Assembly (NCBI GenBank): GCA_951406725.2
Contig: OX597814.1
Span: 200,756,001-200,820,000 of the forward strand
Direction of reading: 5' to 3'
DNA: 64,000 bases
DNA from: Octopus vulgaris
Taxonomy: Eukaryota
Shown here piece after piece: positions 3,560 to 63,174 of this stretch. Under the pieces are notes generated by a model that had not been told where the DNA came from, did no database searches, and saw only the letters and a list, made by a program, of their open reading frames with translations. Positions within the stretch are counted from its first letter, which is position 1, and every line of letters begins with the position of its first letter. Both the position numbers and the translations under genes were made by a program.

Positions 3560-3990
3560 TACTACTTACTTGTACTTGTACTTGTGACGGCGTTCGCCCA
3601 GGGTGGGTTGAGCCAGCTTTTTCTCTGGTCCTGATGGCATCACGAACCATGGCGGCCCACGCTCGACAGTCTTGTGCGAGGTCACTGGAGATAGCGAGCC
3701 ATTCGCAGTTCCATCTGCGCAGACTGAGAGTTCAGAGAGGTCCTCCTTTATCGTCATTCCCCAGGTCTTTAGCTGCCCGCCTGTGTGCTTGCGGCAGTTG
3801 GAAAGTGGAGGTGGGAGAAGGACATCACGAATCAGCTCACCCTCTGGACGCCGGGCCACATGACCAAACCACCTTAAGCGCTGTTGTAGAAGCACTGAAG
3901 GGAGGGGCCGGAGATTCAGGCGATGACGAAGACCGGCTGTAGGAACCCGATCAATGATGTCGGCAGCGAAGAATACGGTGGAGACAGTCA
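3560..3990 (-). mobile_element. RTE-clade LINE 3' fragment with (TACAAG)n tail
   Basis: ORF 3566..3895(-) reads QQRLRWFGHVARRPEGELIRDVL...GGQLKTW, the typical RTE C-terminus RLRW.GHV.R. Short tandem tail at 3560-3590. Confidence 0.85.
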
Positions 3991-4552
3991 GTCAGTCAAA
4001 TCCTACTGCATGTCACTTTGATCGAATGTTTTTAACCATAGCCTCAGGCTAATCAAAGCCCTGTGAGTGGATTTGGCTGACGGAAACTGAAAAACTGTTG
4101 AAGCAGGAAGACACGGGATGAGGCGATGAAATATGATCTTTGGATGTTGGGCTTCATGGAGGTGATGAGGTGACTGAGAGTTTTGGCAGTTTGCCATGGT
4201 TGAGGAGACATGTCAAGCTAAGTGAAATCATAGCCATGACCAGTGCCAATGACACATAAAAGGCACCAATGCTGGTGACACGTAAAAGACATCCAGTACA
4301 CTCTGTGGAGTGGTTGGCATTAGGAAGGGCATTCAGTCATAGAAACCAAGCCAAAACAGACTGGAGCCTTGTGCAACTCCGTGGCTTACCAGCTCCAGTC
4401 AAACTATCTTACTCATGCTAGCATGGAAAATGGACATAACTGATGATGATGATGATATACACATGTGTATGTATGTATGTATGTATATATGTATGTATGC
4501 ACGCATGCATGTATGAATGGATGTATACATGCATGTATATATGTATGTATGT

Positions 4553-6395: not shown

Positions 6396-6614
6396 AAGAC
6401 TGCTGGAAAAAAAGCAAATAAATAGAATAGAATAAAATGAACGTGAATAAATAGGGGATACTGATAATGCAGGTACCATACACATTCCTACACACACCAA
6501 ATATTGACATACACAGGGATATACGTATGTGCAAATAAAGACACATACAGCAGGAACACAAAATGGCAGCTCATTAGGACAGAGAGACACAAAAAAGAAA
6601 GAAAAAGCAAAAGA

Positions 6615-6654
6615 CCACTGATGAGGTCACAGTAGTGTGACGAAAGAACTCTAA
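6615..6654 (+). ncRNA. Minimal type-I hammerhead ribozyme motif (C3:G8, extra G, helix I decayed)
   Basis: CTGATGA(6618-6624)-G-GTCACA-GTAG-TGTGAC-GAAA-GAAC-TC. Helix II is a perfect 6 bp. Helix I is only partly paired (CCA/TAA). Confidence 0.7.
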
Positions 6655-7044
6655 AATATAATTAATATGAAATAAAGCTGAACCAAGTGAGCACCGAATA
6701 AATAGTGTGTGTGTTTTCATTGGCTAAACTGGCAACATGACCATCCCCAAATAGCAATATCTGTCTCAACACATGAGTTCACATCAAGAATCTTGCAAAA
6801 TGATTACATAAACATATATATATGATGTTATATATATATATATCTCATCATCATCATTATCGTTTTATGTCCGCTTTCCATGCTGGCATGGGTTGGACTG
6901 TTTGACAGAGGACTGGTGAGCCAGACTCTGCACCAGGCTCCAATCTGATCTGCCAGAGTTTCTGCAGCTGGATGCCCTTCCTAACACCAACCACTCCGAG
7001 AGTGTAGTGGGTGCTTTTATGTGCCACTGGCATGAGGACCAATT

Positions 7045-7353: not shown

Positions 7354-8390
7354 TGAGTGTGTGAGAGACAAAGAAAGAAAGAAAAAGGGAAAGAAAAACA
7401 ACAAAAGAAAAAGGAGAAAAAGCAAGTGATTGAAAGAAAAATAAATGTAGATATCCTGTTATGTATGGTGAGAGAACCACACATATGAACTTATATCATT
7501 TCTAAACTTGGCAAAGTATAAAACATCTACTTTTATATTGATTAGTAAAGTAGAAATTATTCTAGAAACAGAATTGTGTAGAAGCAATATTTCTCATCCA
7601 CTTTATAAGGTCAGCATCTGAGGTTAAAATACTTTGATTTGCTTTTTGCTTTGGTTAACTTTTGAAGGTAGAAATATATTTTATCTCTACCTGATAACAC
7701 TTAACATATTACACTAAAACAGGTTTTCCTATATTATTGTATTCTTTAAATTGTCTAGTAATATGATTTCCTCTTGCACTTAGTGTCTTATCATCATTGT
7801 TGTCATCATCATCACCACCACCATCATCATAATCATCATCATTTTACATTTGCTTCTCATGCCAGCATGGGTTGAATGGATCATCAATTTTTTAAATGAA
7901 AGTCACTGCTCCCAAAGACTGGTGCCCATAGTTGTTATTTGGCTTCATTTTTACAGTCGGATGCCTTTCTTATTCCCAACCATTTTACAGAGTGCACTGG
8001 GTGCATTTTTCTATGGGACCCACACCAGAGAGGTTGAATAGTCCTTGGTGAGAGACATATATAATGGGACATCACAGTTCCATGCTTTCTTTGCTCATTT
8101 GCCAACCACTTGCTGGCACCAGCACTAGACAGGTTCTCTTGTCCACCAATCACTCAAGTGCAGTGGTTCTTAGCTGGCGTCCCTATGACCCATAGGGGCC
8201 CATATAAAAATTTGGTGGGGTTCCATGCAAGCAAAATTATAAATTAGGGCTCCACATTATTTTTAGGCATCAAGATGTATTTATTGCATGAAACAACCAG
8301 GCTCCTTTCTCTAACACTTTACACTGTTCAACAAAATTTCTGGCCACTGAAACATGTTCTCCCAGAAAGTGTTATTTCACAGAACTCTGA

Positions 8391-8975
8391 ATGGAAACAG
8401 TGAATAATATAACCCAAACCCTCTGTTCTCACTATGCCAAACCTATGGCCTCCAAATACCTGATCCACCAGAACTCAGCTATTGCGGACAATGCCAAATT
8501 CAATATATTGATGGCAGACCTCATCAGAGTAATGAGAAATGTGTCCCACATGTGCAACCCTACAGAGTTAAAGAGACACATAGAACACTTCATCCACCAC
8601 ATGCAGTTGTCCGGATACAGCCATAGGGAAAGGATCAGAGTATATAAAGGAGCCATGACGGAATTTGAAACTATCATATATAAGGATAGGAGTGGGATTT
8701 GTCCACTCTGGAATACTTTATATATATGGAATACCAGTGAAAGGACTAAGAAGAAAATAGGGAAGGCCAACTCTTGGTATGGTAGCCACAAATACCAGAG
8801 TATCATGTTTGTCAACACCACCACTAGAGGCAAACTGGTGTGCTGCTTTAGAAGGGCTCCAGACAAGCTTAAGCTGAAAAGTAAGGTTGTAGAAAGGCCA
8901 GGTAACCCTATAAAATCCCTAATCAGTAGAACCTACCCGTTTAATAGAACCCCCTGTACTGATAGGAACTGGTGA
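8391..8975 (+). pseudogene. Penelope-like element ORF fragment (RT thumb/C-terminal region and linker)
   Basis: 194-aa ORF with YAKPMASKYLIHQNSA...KFNIL..DLIRVMRNVS...MQLSGYS...KVVERPG..IKSLI...YPF...C. This matches the PLE pattern Y.KP.....H..S....K..I....R..RN.S....SGY followed by a Cys linker. Confidence 0.75.
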
Positions 8976-9516
8976 AAGGGAGAAAGGGAGCTATTCTCAA
9001 ACTAGAGGTCTAGCTTTAATGCTAGTAATAGAATGAACTCTACTTGAGGAAGTTGAAGTACCAAATCATGCTAAACCATATGTAGGCATTCAGGCTTTGA
9101 CCAGATTTGAACTTAGGTAGCAAAGAGCTGGAACAAATGCTATAGCAAAAGCATCCAGTCTGATTTTCTTGCAGTTCTGCTAATCCACCACCCCAGGTTG
9201 GTACTTTGTAGTTTTTGATGGGGTAATCAACTGCAAAGGTATGGATGAAGAGCAAAGTTGACCTTGGCAGGATTTGAACTCGAAGTGAATAGAGCCTGAA
9301 CAAATAATATGGCATTTTATCCAATGGTCTAACAACACTGTCAGTCAGTTCCAAATTCACTACTTTTTCAACTTTTTACGGAGATGTACTCGCATAGCAA
9401 GTGATTTGATCTGAGATCGTGTGCTGGAACGGAAACAATTGCAGCGTGGAAGGTGTTTGTAAGCCATTTAAGAAACACACAAAAGCCGTTCGATTCACTT
9501 CAACATTTAAGTTTAA

Positions 9517-9566
9517 TTTGTCAAAATATTTTCGTCGCTAAAATCCGCGACCTGTTCACTGACAAA
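9517..9566 (-). ncRNA. Minimal type-I hammerhead ribozyme, G3:C8 core variant, within a ~210-bp element (9365-9577)
   Basis: Minus strand: TTTGTCA-GTGAACA-G-GTCGC-GGATTTTA-GCGAC-GAA-A-ATAT-T-T-TGACAAA. Perfect 7-bp helix I, 5-bp helix II, palindromic helix III. Confidence 0.8.
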
Positions 9567-10696
9567 AATCCGTGAGCAAACAAAAACTGAAGAACTTTTC
9601 CCAAAGAAAAATTAAGTTCACCTCTTTAGAATTTTAAAGAAAAAGAGTCTCAAAGAGTATTATTGATTAGCCAAAATGTGTCAGGAAGCTAAAAGGTTGG
9701 AAACCCCTGCTATATAAGAATCCTCACTTTTGGCAATAAAGTTATTGCCAAAATTTGCATTGATTTCTAACATTGGCACCATATAGAGTAATATCTAACA
9801 ACACAATCCAAACTCCAGATATTTTTTTTCCATGTTCTTCTGTGATTTTTATACACGCAGCTCTATTTATGTAATATGTATATATGCGGAGAATATACTT
9901 ACGTATAACTTTCCATTTAGTCATGACTAAAAAAAGCTCTTTTCAACTTCTCTTTCTATAATTTTTTTTATTTTTTATTTTTTTCTGAAATAAATCTTGA
10001 TTAGAAAAAAAAAAAACTTGTTATATTTGAAAAATAAATTCTTTTATTCCACATCCATTAAGCAAGGGAAATATGTAAAGCCGAAAAAAAAAAAAAAGAA
10101 GAGAAAAGTACCATTACATGAAATCTTGCCTAAAGCTTTGTGCAGATGTGTTACTTTCATGCTAAAGACATTTAAAACAAGAATAAAATAGAATATTTTT
10201 TTGTTAAATAAGTAAATATTTTACCATATTTTCCAAGTATATATACTACAACAAAAGAAAGACTTTGCTATTATTTGAATAATTAGCTACTACTACTACC
10301 ACCCCTACTACTATTACTACTACTATGATTTTTATCATGATTATTATTATTATTATTATTATTATTATTGTTGTTGTTGTTGTTGGCAATGGTTATTTTT
10401 ACTATAAGACTGTTTAATCTTTGCAACTTTAAAATCTGAAATAATTTCAGGCATAACGTGATCATTTTACTCTATTATTTTCAATTCAATGAAAATTTTC
10501 TCTTCATTCAAATTTCAAAAATAAGAAATAGCAGGTGCAAATCAAAATTGCACGCCACTTCATATATATCAGATATATTTCATTGAAGCTGTTTTATGGA
10601 AATCAGTACTAAGGAATTACACCTATATCATTATTCCTCTTGGAAAGTTATGTTTAATAAATAGGATTTACTATTTATTATTATGTGATAAGTGTG

Positions 10697-15324: not shown

Positions 15325-17184
15325 TAAGCTAAACAGAAATAAATAGACGAAGTAAAATCCTGACAATGGCTGAGAAGATCAAATTAGGACTCAAAGCGGA
15401 GACTGAAGGATTTTTAATTGTAGCACAAGATCAAAGCCTTCCCATCAGAAATCACCAAAAACTCGTGATGAAAAGAAAGAATATGTAGAGATGGAGAAGA
15501 AGCAATAAATCATATTGTCTGTGGCTGCCCAGTCCTGGCTAAGAAGGAATATATTCACAGACATGACAGAGTTGGGTTCTATATAGACTGGAAGCTATGC
15601 CAACACGATGGAACAACAACAGAAAAAAGATGGTATAGGCAAACACCAGAAAAGGTCACAGAAAACGAGAAAGCAACCATACTACGGGATATGCAAATAC
15701 ACACAGATAGAGAATTCAAGGCCAATAGGCTGGATATCATTGTCAGAAATCAAGGAAAAAAATGCTTTTTAATTAATGTATCAATACCAACAAATGACAA
15801 CATTTCTCTAAAAGAAATGGAGAAACTTTTTCAAAATACAAAGATCTGGAATTAGAGGTAACCAGAATGTGGAATCTAAAAACAGAAACAATTCCTATCA
15901 TAGTAGGTGCATTAGGCATGATAAAATAATATTCAGACAAATCTGGACCTAAGAAGCATCAGTTGTGGTGTGCAAGAGAGACGATTGTGCTGGTATGGTC
16001 ATGTGGCGAGAATGGATGAAGATAGTTGTGTGAAAAAAGTGCCACACCCTAGCGGTTGAGGGAACCTGTGGAAGAGGCAGACCCAGGAAAACCTGGGATG
16101 AGGTGGTGAAGCACGACCTTCGAACTTTAGGTCTCACTGAGGAAATGACTAGAGACCGAGTCCTATGGAAGTGTGCTGTGCGCGAGAAGACCCGGCAGGA
16201 CAAGTGAGTCCATAACCCGTGGCCTTCTACTTGGGATGGAGCCAGCCTACGTATGCATACCTTCCCTTCTTGGGACACAAAACTCTACTTGGGACCTGTT
16301 GAGGCAAGTGAGGATCAGAATCGAAATCGATCAATTTGCAGATGTGTTACCAGTGCCGGTGGCATGTCGATACTCTACTTGTGAAGACCCGTTGAGGCAA
16401 GTGAGGATCAGAATCGAAATCGATCAATGGAAATTGCAGATGTGTTACCAGTGCCGGTGGCATGTCGAATACTCTACTTGTGAAGACCCGTTGAGGCAAG
16501 TGAGGATCAGAAATGGAAATCGATCAATGGAAATTGCAGATGTGTTACCAGTGCCGGTGGCATGTCGAAACTCTACTTGTGAAGACCCGTTGAGGCAAGT
16601 GAGGATCAGAATGGAAATCGATCAATGGAAATTGCAGATGTGTTACCAGTGCCGGTGGCATGTAAGAGAACCTTCCGTTTCGCGACCGTTGCCAGCACCG
16701 CCCCGTTTCGTGTCCGTTGCCAGCCTCGCCTGGCCCTTGTGCCGGTGGCACATAAAAAGCACCATCCGTTCGTGGCCGTTTGCCAGCTCTGTCTGGCACC
16801 TGTGCGGGTGGCACGTAAAAAGCACCCACTACACTCACGGAGTGGTTGGCGTTAGGAAGGGCATCCAGCCGTAGAAACACTGCCAGATTTGACTGGGCCT
16901 GATGAAGCCTTCTGGCTTCACAGACCCCAGTAGAACCGTCCAACCCATGCTAGCATGGAAAACGGACGCTAAACGATGATGATGATGATGATGATGACAT
17001 AACAAAAACACCAGGACTTACAAATATATATAGCATACAGAAAATAGCACTACTAGGCACAGCACACATCCTACGTAAAACACTTTCAGTACAGTGAAAA
17101 TGAGAGCATCACAACAAACCACAGCACATACCCAGGACACACAGAGCTGTATTCGGTTGTGCAGTAAAAGCATGTGATAAAAGA

Positions 17185-25128: not shown

Positions 25129-25187
25129 TTCTACTGAAGAGTGTAAAGTAATTTTTATTACAGAATACGAAATCTTAAGATATAGAG
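25129..25187 (+). ncRNA. Type-I hammerhead ribozyme with fully canonical core
   Basis: TTCTA-CTGAAGA-GTGT-AAA-GTAAT-TTTT-ATTAC-AGA-ATAC-GAA-A-TCTTAAGA-T-A-TAGAG. All three helices pair, helix III is the palindrome ATCTTAAGAT, and the predicted cut is after AUA (25182). Confidence 0.8.
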
Positions 25188-61822: not shown

Positions 61823-62216
61823 AATTGGCAAGACATTTTAACAATGTTGTATACAGTTCCTAATAATATTTAATTACAAGAATTTAAAATGAATTTTTTA
61901 AACATCATATGGTTAGGAGGGTCCATTCAAGTACAACGGGAATAAAAAAAAAAGATGTTTGCAAAAAACTGATCTGAGTTAATTATTAGTATGGAAAATA
62001 TCATTACTTTGGTTACTGCTTTTAGGCAAGATGTTTTAATCAGGGACAGAGTTTATTGTTGTTGTTTTTCTATGTGTGAGGTATTTATTTTACAAATGTC
62101 TCATTTTTGTAAGGACAGTGTGAAACTGGTGGTTGATTTGACTGAAAATGGCTAAATACAATCTCAGAATCTACATAGACATTTTGGAATTAATTTGGAA
62201 TTATTCAAAATAATTT

Positions 62217-62478
62217 TGTTGTGTCTGGGGAGAGTCATTCTCTTTTAGTGCCTTATTATTTAACACACTCACCAGTACAATTTCCACTTATCTCCTTTAT
62301 TTTTCTAAAATTTTTGTTGCGTCTTGCAACCTTTTCAATAGTCTTGAGAAACTACTGAAAAGGTTGCAAGACACAATGAAAATTTTAGAAAATAAAAATA
62401 AGAAATAAGTGGAAATTTTACTGGTGAGTGTGTTAAATAATAAGGCATTAAAAGGAATGACTCTCCCCAGACACAACA
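62217..62478. mobile_element. Head-to-head inverted pLTR-like element with two hammerhead motifs (U3:A8 variant)
   Basis: Inverted arms of about 125 bp. Minus 62305-62341: CTA-TTGAAAA-G-GTTGC-AAGAC-GCAAC-AAA-A-AT-T-T-TAG. Plus 62352-62388: CTA-CTGAAAA-G-GTTGC-AAGAC-ACAAT-GAA-A-AT-T-T-TAG. Confidence 0.8.
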
Positions 62479-63174
62479 GATTATGCTTCAACACACAAAC
62501 TCATATAAAGAATCTTGCAAACCAAATCCAAAAACGAAACAAAATAATTTTGCTTTTATTAAATTTCTTGCTAAGGCAGTGAGCTGGCAGAGTCATTACT
62601 GTGCTGGAAAAATTGCTTGGTGGTATTTCTTCTAACTTTATATTCTGAGTTCAAATGCAGTAGGAGTTGACTTTGTCTTTCATTCTTTCAGGATTGATGA
62701 AAGAAGTACCACTTGATCATTAGGGTCGATGTAAGCAACTATTGCCCTCCTACCAAGTTGCAGGCCTTGAACCTATAATAGAAAGGATTATTATTATTAT
62801 TATTGGCAGAGTCATTAGCACATTGGGAAAAATGCTTAGCAGCACCTTCCCCTACAATGGTTGGCCTTGTACCAAAATTTGAAACCATTATTAATTTTCT
62901 TGCTCAGACTGATACCACTTGAAGAACCATCATTGTCTTTTTCTGATGCTCTTGGAGTGAACAGAGATGATGCCATCAGTATATCAATAAAAGTTGGCAA
63001 ACTGAGCAAAATCATAAGAGCATCAGGGAAAATGCTTAGCAGCGTTTGTTTTGGCTTTTTATATTTTGTATCGGAATTGTGCTGAGATTAACTTTACCAT
63101 TCATCCTTTCAGAATTGATAAGAATTGATAAGAAAGTACCAGTGAAGTACTGGGAATGATGTAATTGACTAATA

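What the first reader, a model, noticed from the sequence alone, without database searches (positions are those of the whole stretch)
6590..6812. C3:G8 member of a three-way covariation series with a bulged G after A9
Seen: this element, the one at 9365-9577(-) and the one at 62352-62535(+) share an architecture: core, extra G, helix II starting GT, GAAA, an AATAAA/ATTAAA just downstream, AAGTG, GTGTGT and a similar 3' motif (CACATGAGTTCACATCAAGAATCTTGC / CACACGATCTCAGATCAAATCACTTGC / CACACAAACTCATATAAAGAATCTTGC). Their cores are CTGATGA, GTGAACA and TTGAAAA, so positions 3 and 8 change together. Established: 3:8 is a tertiary Watson-Crick pair in the active HHR, and an extra nucleotide between A9 and G10.1 is tolerated in some natural HHRs. 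Inference: selection maintained the active fold across diverged subfamilies.
Basis: partly seen in the sequence, partly recalled or inferred. Interest (0 to 1): 0.75.

Follow-up and report, generated by a model that had tools for sequence, protein, structure and literature searches.

The report
Octopus retrotransposon ends with variant hammerheads
This 200-base stretch is a decayed end-piece of a Penelope-like jumping gene whose self-cutting (hammerhead) RNA motif has an ordinary core and is predicted to be inactive here, but a sister family nearby carries a swapped G3:C8 core pair that is fixed across its many copies, likely kept by selection for cutting.

Summary
The three elements are real and homologous. 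Each is the short end-piece of a Penelope-like retrotransposon (PLE): minimal hammerhead core, 5' UTR, then the first ~27-31 codons of the PLE protein. The element at 6618 has the canonical C3:G8 core and a good helix II, but helix I is only 1 bp, so this copy is predicted not to cleave. The three-way series is only partly right. The copy at 62352(+) reads C3:A8, a mismatch; U3:A8 occurs only in its inverted twin, which has lost G12. The G3:C8 element (9376-9574, minus strand) holds up: in contigs of four public runs, G3, C8 and the extra G show no other letter at 5% or more, while loop II varies. The extra nucleotide after A9, U3:A8 and inverted pairs are published for PLE hammerheads. I found no report of a natural G3:C8 family, but a key paper was unavailable. 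Two families also end at the same codon, which fits internal initiation of reverse transcription. Cleavage was not tested. Verdict: new variant of a known kind.

The parts
6617..6817 (+). e1: decayed pLTR-plus-ORF-start piece of a Penelope-like element (5' edge uncertain by about 10 nt; 3' end runs into a TA repeat at 6813-6817)
6618..6625 (+). e1 hammerhead core CUGAUGA (C3:G8) plus extra G after A9
6626..6645 (+). e1 helix II (6 bp, 4-nt loop) and GAAA box
6645..6653 (+). e1 imperfect helix III palindrome and candidate cleavage site (H17 = C6651 or A6653); helix I only 0-1 bp
6671..6676 (+). AATAAA in the 5' UTR/pLTR (possible polyadenylation signal, untested)
6737..6817 (+). e1 start of the PLE reading frame, broken by a frameshift and two stops; aligns to the e3 peptide (0 of 2000 shuffles) and weakly to P0005 (45 of 2000)
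9376..9574 (-). e2: sister-family piece; family 3' ends at 9376 (ORF +92) and 9433 (ORF +35); this copy's 5' end at 9574
9517..9566 (-). e2 complete minimal type I hammerhead: helix I 7 bp (9566-9560 with 9523-9517), core GUGAACA 9559-9553 (G3:C8), extra G 9552, helix II 5 bp, GAAA, palindromic AAUAUU, H17 = U9524
9376..9467 (-). e2 intact ORF start; 28 of 30 residues identical to the N-terminus of P0005 (Octopus sinensis by source label)
62219..62539 (.). e3: head-to-head inverted insertion of two pLTR pieces of a third family, joined just upstream of the hammerhead cores
62355..62385 (+). e3 right-arm hammerhead, core CUGAAAA (C3:A8 mismatch), extra G, GAAA, AAUU palindrome, 3-bp helix I
62308..62338 (-). 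e3 left-arm hammerhead, core UUGAAAA (U3:A8), extra G, G12 lost (AAAA)
62457..62539 (+). e3 ORF start (about 28 codons); aligns to the P0005 N-terminus (0 of 2000 shuffles)
62206..62218 (+). 13-bp target-site duplication, left copy
62540..62552 (+). 13-bp target-site duplication, right copy (identical)

Best explanation
The element at about 6617-6817 is the short end-piece (pseudo-LTR plus the first ~27 codons) of a Penelope-like retrotransposon, likely made by reverse transcription that starts inside the reading frame, and its minimal hammerhead has a normal C3:G8 core but only one base pair of helix I, so this copy is predicted not to cleave. Shown: e1, e2 and e3 are homologous; each runs core, UTR, ATG, PLE N-terminus; the e2 frame continues in database proteins into the PLE reverse transcriptase; the e2 family is a high-copy repeat with two sharp 3' ends and a fixed G3:C8 core with extra G. 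Inferred: the PLE protein nicks AT-rich DNA, primes cDNA at one of two sites about 35 or 92 nt into the ORF, and copies back through the UTR and the uncleaved hammerhead to an RNA end about 20-25 nt upstream of the core. When both nicked strands prime, an inverted pair like e3 would result. Also inferred: in the active master elements the hammerheads cut as dimers or with help from the protein, and selection there, not at these dead copies, kept 3:8 paired while the letters changed (C:G, G:C, probably U:A).
For: ORF chain: e2 peptide to P0004 (the only hit among 1.84 billion representatives, E 4.5e-9), to P0005 and P0006. P0006 carries the DKSG motif and is 46% identical over 207 aa to P0001, an RT protein with a weak Pfam RVT_1 match (E 0.004, below the curated cut-off), a CX4CX2C linker and a GIY-YIG-like start. 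Homology of the three. Shared 3' end: the e2-family end (9376; loose ends in 98, 101, 71 and 58 contigs of the four runs) and the TSD-defined end of e3 both lie 34 nt after the first base of the conserved Ile-Lys codons, and e1 turns into TA repeat at that point. A second end at 9433 (71, 47, 44 contigs in three runs; 9437 in the fourth) lies within 6 nt of the e3 left-arm end. This matches the two internal RT start sites and 'tail' of the Anolis PLE (PMC11167929) and the inverted 5'-truncated copies of PLEs (PMC8557442). Core fixation: no other letter at 5% or more at 9545-9575 in 4 of 4 runs, at depth 8e4-1.1e6 against 5-150 in the flank. Variation sits in loop II, at CpG sites, and at one helix I position where it keeps a G-U pair (7-30%). 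The loose-end consensus behind 9539 shows the same core with another loop in 4 of 4 runs. Engineered C3G/G8C partly restores cleavage, also in a PLE hammerhead. H17 is U in the G3 family, which would avoid the G3-C17 trap implied in PMC3884650 (inference).
Against: No cleavage or expression data. The e1 and e3 families were not sampled, so their consensus cores and e1's helix I rest on one and two copies. The e3 ancestor could be C3:G8 with a G8A change in the source copy. No single protein joins the e2 N-terminus to a complete RT and endonuclease; the link runs through P0006 to the related family P0001. Codon-position bias is inconsistent (6/3/7, 5/7/11, 9/6/6). e2 helix I has only about 0.1 probability in the monomer ensemble of this copy. 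No target-site duplication is evident at e1, and only a doubtful 7-mer at e2. The 57-63 nt gap between the two ends exceeds the published 30-40 nt tail. Summed contig depth is not a copy number. The 5' boundary rests on a few listed loose-end rows (861 rows not shown) and on 3 of 15 listed joints, each one contig per run.
Confidence: 0.8

Rival explanations
1. The ~200-nt pieces are self-standing non-autonomous elements (retrozyme- or SINE-like) that are transcribed and copied as units by the PLE enzyme, not by-products of full-length PLEs.
For: Very high depth and fixed ends in the e2 family; all three insertions in this window are the short form; animal retrozymes are proposed to derive from PLE pLTRs (bioRxiv 10.64898/2026.07.22.740005, part 1 of 5 read).
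Against: They are not tandem arrays. They carry the true ORF start, whose continuation exists in P0004-P0006. Cervera and de la Pena already ascribe most single minimal hammerheads to truncated PLEs. Fixed ends follow from fixed RT start sites.
Confidence: 0.15
2. The hammerhead fold is kept for a role other than cleavage (protein binding, template end, translation), and the extra G damps or silences cutting.
For: The inserted copies retain the whole core, so they came from uncut RNA (sequence). In the Anolis PLE, catalytic mutants did not affect insertion in vitro and no RNA-seq reads ended at the site. A10-to-G was harmful in a viroid hammerhead. PLE minimal hammerheads cleave weakly in vitro.
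Against: The 3:8 pair forms in the active conformation (PMC3884650), so a fixed compensatory G3:C8 change points to selection on that conformation. The slipped register with the extra G is 3.8 kcal/mol less stable than the normal helix II in both e1 and e2. The palindromic helix III and NUH site are kept in e2.
Confidence: 0.2
3. The three elements are unrelated look-alikes and the 3:8 pattern is chance or decay.
For: The short UTR motifs are barely above shuffles; the + copy of e3 has a mismatched 3:8; e1 lacks helix I; Rfam finds nothing.
Against: DNA and peptide homology beat all shuffles, the 3' ends are in register, and G3:C8 is fixed in 4 of 4 runs.
Confidence: 0.02

Closest known systems
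Minimal hammerheads in the pLTRs of metazoan Penelope-like elements (Cervera and de la Pena 2014, PMC4209133)
   Same: Type I fold, short palindromic helix III, short helix I, unpaired nucleotide between A9 and G10.1, mostly solo copies, opposite-strand pairs, and a U3-A8 variant; the core UUGAAAA itself is listed for S. mansoni family 4.
   Different: G3:C8 is in 0 of 56 listed examples (their descriptors would have missed it); the extra letter is G in all three families here but in 1 of 56 there (consensus H); no octopus among their 40 species (0 hits in the searchable supplement).
Poseidon PAc element of Anolis carolinensis (Frangieh et al. 2024, PMC11167929)
   Same: Insertions end at two fixed sites inside the first ~120 nt of the ORF; AT-rich targets; both strands primed in vitro; uncut RNA serves as template.
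   Different: Here the hammerhead lies 90-120 nt upstream of the ATG instead of overlapping it; the ends are at +35 and +92 (57 nt apart); the related octopus RT has a Neptune-type cysteine linker; C3G/G8C is natural here and engineered there.
Neptune-type C-terminal EN+ PLEs (Craig et al. 2021, PMC8557442)
   Same: The related protein P0001 has RT, then CX4CX2C, then a GIY-YIG-like start; TA-rich flanks; inverted 5'-truncated copies.
   Different: The linker and endonuclease of the e1, e2 and e3 families themselves were not seen; no tree was built; Neptune is paraphyletic in that paper.
Non-LTR retrozymes of animals
   Same: PLE-related, hammerhead-bearing short repeats.
   Different: Retrozymes are tandem and non-coding; these are dispersed single or inverted pieces that include the ORF start.

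Membership tests
Minimal type I hammerhead (e1 copy) | Core NUGANNA and GAAA with Watson-Crick 3:8, closed by helix II with G10.1-C11.1 | tested here: met
Minimal type I hammerhead (e1 copy) | Helix I closing the junction around a UH site | tested here: not met
   0-1 bp in three registers, probability 0.0; e1 is a hammerhead remnant, not a complete fold
Minimal type I hammerhead (e1 copy) | Palindromic helix III for dimer formation | tested here: inconclusive
   4 of 6 or 6 of 8 self-pairs
Minimal type I hammerhead (e2 family) | Core, helices I and II, palindromic helix III, UH site | tested here: met
   7 bp, 5 bp, 6 of 6, UUU site; core fixed in 4 of 4 runs
Minimal type I hammerhead (e3 arms) | Intact core with paired 3:8 in one copy | tested here: not met
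   right arm C3:A8; left arm U3:A8 but lacks G12
Hammerhead ribozyme | Site-specific self-cleavage | not testable with these tools
   no RNA holder listed; no assay
Penelope-like elements | PLE-type ORF (N-terminal domain, DKG-type motif, RT) | tested here: met
   e2 to P0005/P0004 to P0006 (DKSG) to P0001 (RT); e3 and e1 by homology. The reading of these motifs as PLE-specific rests on PMC8557442 and on recall
Penelope-like elements | Hammerhead in the pLTR upstream of the ORF; insertions ending at two sites inside the ORF start (tail); inverted 5'-truncated copies | tested here: met
Penelope-like elements | Full pLTR-ORF-pLTR copy with GIY-YIG endonuclease for these families | not testable with these tools
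   no genome held; seen only in the related P0001
Neptune clade | CX2-5CxxC linker between RT and a C-terminal endonuclease; placement in an RT tree | tested here: inconclusive
   present in P0001, which is 46% identical to P0006; not seen in the families themselves; no tree
Non-LTR retrozymes | Tandem, non-coding repeats with a hammerhead in each unit | tested here: not met
   no tandem copies; ORF start included

The most novel reading that the evidence does not exclude
One octopus lineage of Neptune-like PLEs has run a natural compensatory-mutation series on the hammerhead active site: sister families use C3:G8, U3:A8 and G3:C8, all with an extra G after A9, and the G3:C8 form is an active ribozyme in hundreds to thousands of copies per genome that has not been reported in nature. 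The same families keep two reverse-transcription start sites in the same codon register and leave twin-primed inverted insertions that stop at the hammerhead, a genomic record of priming from both strands.
Probability: 0.4. Interest if true: 0.6.

Novelty: new variant of a known kind. Interest (0 to 1): 0.42.

Why it matters
Whether PLE hammerheads matter to the element is an open question: they cut weakly, and one in vitro study found them dispensable for insertion. A family that fixed a double G3:C8 change in a pair that forms in the active conformation is strong comparative evidence that catalysis is under selection, and it gives a ready natural construct to assay. It also shows that descriptor searches built on CUGANGA miss whole high-copy families. 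PLEs make up 6.83% of the O. vulgaris assembly (PMC13282606 supplement), and that paper's main text does not mention ribozymes. The shared end register extends the internal-initiation model beyond the one Poseidon element tested. The e1 copy itself is ordinary and dead.

Tried and rejected
No host genome was held, so no genome-wide alignment. Rfam: nothing at gathering score; no hammerhead among 21 weak matches. Viral-contig scan for a G3:C8 core pattern: 60 loci, 1 of 60 with helix II of 4 bp or more and helix I of 3 bp or more, none alike beyond the pattern; treated as chance. Metagenome-contig scan for the e1/e3 coding motif: 20 loci, none alike beyond the pattern. The e3 peptide against longer proteins: 0 of 2 candidates. 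Pfam names neither the RT-thumb fragment nor P0004/P0006. PDB sequence search with P0001: 0. ESM Atlas: P0004 gave only a 0.75 lead; P0006 gave eukaryotic DUF8422 clusters at 0.96-0.97 that do not name the family. Sequencing runs: no RNA holder listed, which says nothing on expression. Reads could be laid once; I chose e2, so the e1 and e3 families are unsampled. Earlier findings of the scan: none for this genome or for the e1 and e2 sequences; eight notes on other genomes did not bear on the reading. Rejected: a type III fold for e1 (the upstream flank is purine-rich with no UH partner); the other two reading frames of the 3' motif (only the frame from the ATG matches P0004/P0005); the RT fragment at 8379-8963 as the body of e1 or e2 (SINEs lie between, it is on the other strand from e2, and its family was not linked to either). 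One codon-position count was out of register and was redone. Lunse et al. 2017, the largest survey of PLE hammerhead variants, was not held and may already list G3:C8.

Full report
Observation. e1 (6590-6812) holds CTGATGA at 6618-6624, an extra G, a 6-bp helix II and GAAA, followed by AATAAA, AAGTG, GTGTGT and the quoted 3' motif. e2 holds GTGAACA at 9559-9553 on the minus strand. It is the right arm of an inverted pair. The left arm has TTGAAAA at 62338-62332(-) but AAAA for GAAA. So neither e3 arm has an intact core, and U3:A8 is a likely but unproven ancestral state. A strict core descriptor finds 2 sites in the window against 0.04 per shuffle over 100 shuffles. The three elements are homologous: each DNA pair beats 500 of 500 shuffles, with the signal in the 3' part; the UTR motifs alone are weak (7, 84 and 6 of 500). 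Rfam finds no hammerhead.

The folds. A type I hammerhead needs helix I around a UH site. e2 has it in full: 7 bp of helix I, a perfect 6-nt palindrome for helix III and H17 = U9524. Both e3 arms have 3 bp and a 4-nt palindrome. e1 has at most 1 bp in any of three registers and an imperfect palindrome. Either e1 is cut short just upstream of C3 or two bases have changed; its upstream 7-mer resembles that of e3, so I cannot tell which. In both cases this copy is predicted not to cleave.

The 3' motif is coding. Each element has an ATG about 90-120 nt after the core (6737, 9467, 62457). The e2 frame is open for 35 codons and aligns with the e3 peptide. e1 has the same frame with a frameshift and two stops. 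A profile of the e2 and e3 peptides found 1 protein among 1.84 billion representatives, P0004 (E 4.5e-9; O. bimaculoides by source label). P0004 found 2 of 342 longer candidates: P0005 (O. sinensis; 28 of 30 residues identical to e2) and P0006 (O. vulgaris), which runs on through a DKSG motif into the first RT motif. P0006 is 46% identical over 207 aa to P0001, which has a weak RVT_1 match below Pfam's cut-off, a CX4CX2C linker and a GIY-YIG-like start. By the motifs in PMC8557442 and my own recall of PLE motifs, this is a Neptune-like Penelope element. The host is therefore very likely an octopus (inference from these labels).

Family-level test. I laid contigs of 4 of the 24 listed runs (coded organisms A, B, C, E) on 9330-9630 at 80% likeness. 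Summed depth is 8e4-1.1e6 over the core and up to 4e6 over the UTR, against 5-150 in the flank. This is not a copy number; even divided by 31 for contig overlap, the core-to-flank ratio is 35-555. The table of other letters (5% or more in any run) has no row between 9545 and 9575, so G3, C8, the extra G and the 5' strands of helices I and II are fixed among contigs alike enough to be laid. Changes fall in loop II (9540-9544), at CpG sites in helix II, and at 9521, where 7-30% carry a letter that keeps a G-U pair in helix I. The loose-end consensus behind 9539 (81, 60, 58, 71 contigs) shows the same core with another loop. G3:C8 is thus the family state in 4 of 4 runs. Subfamilies under 80% alike would not be seen, and contigs say nothing on expression. 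The e1 and e3 families were not sampled.

Ends. The e2 family ends sharply at 9376 (98, 101, 71, 58 contigs, AT-rich flanks) and again at 9433 (71, 47, 44 contigs; 9437 in the fourth run), that is ORF +92 and +35. e3 spans 62219-62539 between identical 13-bp repeats; its long arm ends at +83 and its short arm at +20. Measured from the conserved Ile-Lys codons, the e2-family end and the e3 long end both lie 34 nt downstream, e1 turns into TA repeat there, and the two short ends lie within 6 nt of each other. On the 5' side, e2 stops at 9574. Some other copies run about 8 nt further and then diverge, and 3 of 15 listed joints switch strand at 9574-9580, as the e3 junction does. That 5' evidence is thinner: most rows were not shown.

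Mechanism. In the Anolis PLE, reverse transcription starts at two sites inside the ORF start, both target strands are cut and extended, AT-rich DNA is preferred, uncut RNA is the template, the hammerhead cuts only with protein, and C3G/G8C partly rescues it (PMC11167929). The octopus pieces fit this: I infer that they are cDNAs from either start site back through the UTR and hammerhead, and that e3 came from priming on both strands. Selection on the ribozyme would act in the master elements. The fixed double change at 3:8, a pair that forms in the active conformation (PMC3884650), argues that cleavage is what was selected. U at position 17 in the G3 family would avoid a G3-C17 trap (inference from the same paper). 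Against this, the extra G was harmful in a viroid hammerhead (PMC3705267), although a slipped register is 3.8 kcal/mol worse here, and e2 helix I has only about 0.1 probability in the monomer ensemble of this copy.

What is known. Cervera and de la Pena (PMC4209133) describe minimal hammerheads in PLE pLTRs, the nucleotide between 9 and 10.1, solo copies from truncated PLEs, opposite-strand pairs and U3-A8 covariation. In their 56 examples, 54 have the extra nucleotide, 1 has G there, 2 have U3:A8 and 0 have G3:C8 (my count); their descriptors were biased to the usual core. Perreault et al. report natural U3-A8 only (PMC3088659, section 8). Searches for a natural G3:C8 hammerhead and for octopus PLE hammerheads found only engineered cases. 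Lunse et al. 2017 was not held and may cover it. What I read: PMC4209133 parts 1-2 of 4 and supplement file 2 parts 1-2 of 3 (file 1 not searchable); PMC11167929 parts 1-2 of 4; the retrozyme preprint part 1 of 5 (its supplements are closed); PMC3088659 passages and section 8; passages only of PMC8557442, PMC6765202, PMC8495972, PMC6155905, PMC3705267, PMC3884650, PMC10085705 (reference list only) and PMC13282606 (plus a supplement search). The 2001 viroid study was seen only through a review.

Verdict. The assigned element is an ordinary, broken copy of a known kind of PLE hammerhead. The series is two-thirds right: C3:G8 and G3:C8 stand, and U3:A8 is probable but was misread at the stated coordinates. 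The new parts are the fixed G3:C8 plus extra-G family and the shared end register with a 57-63 nt tail. New variant of a known kind; interest 0.42.

Noticed in passing
window 8379-8963 (+): Fragment of a PLE RT thumb and linker, 72% identical to P0001; it lies between e1 and e2 but is not linked to either.
   Followed up: partly
window 35586-35556 (-): A textbook minimal PLE-type hammerhead: CUGAAGA plus extra A, 4-bp helix II, ACGU palindrome, 4-bp helix I; the element runs into a (GT)/(TA) repeat about 130 nt downstream.
   Followed up: partly
window 25597-25559 (-): Type I hammerhead with U3-G8 wobble, no extra nucleotide, an 8-nt perfect palindrome and a 6-bp helix I, inside a longer imperfect inverted repeat with a duplicated flank of about 100 nt.
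   Followed up: partly
window 25134-25187 (+): Another hammerhead-like fold: C3:G8 core, long interrupted helix II, 10-nt perfect palindrome, 5-bp helix I. With e1, e2, both e3 arms and the two above, this makes seven hammerhead-like cores in 64 kb, none found by Rfam.
   Followed up: partly
window 9574-9582 (-): The family sequence just upstream of e2's 5' end reads as a CAG-ending stretch, like a 3' splice site; the Drosophila Penelope intron also ends at helix I. Not tested.
   Followed up: no
window 9507-9521, table 8: Several contigs stop matching at 9507-9521, some within 2-3 nt of the predicted cleavage site (9523/9524); they might be copies of cut RNA or plain 5' truncations.
   Followed up: no
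P0005: This database protein joins the PLE N-terminus to a methyltransferase domain, probably a gene-prediction chimera.
   Followed up: no
window 15472-15855 (+) and 3566-3991 (-): Open frames that look like C-terminal pieces of non-LTR (R4/Dong-like and RTE-like) retrotransposons by recall; Pfam did not name them.
   Followed up: no
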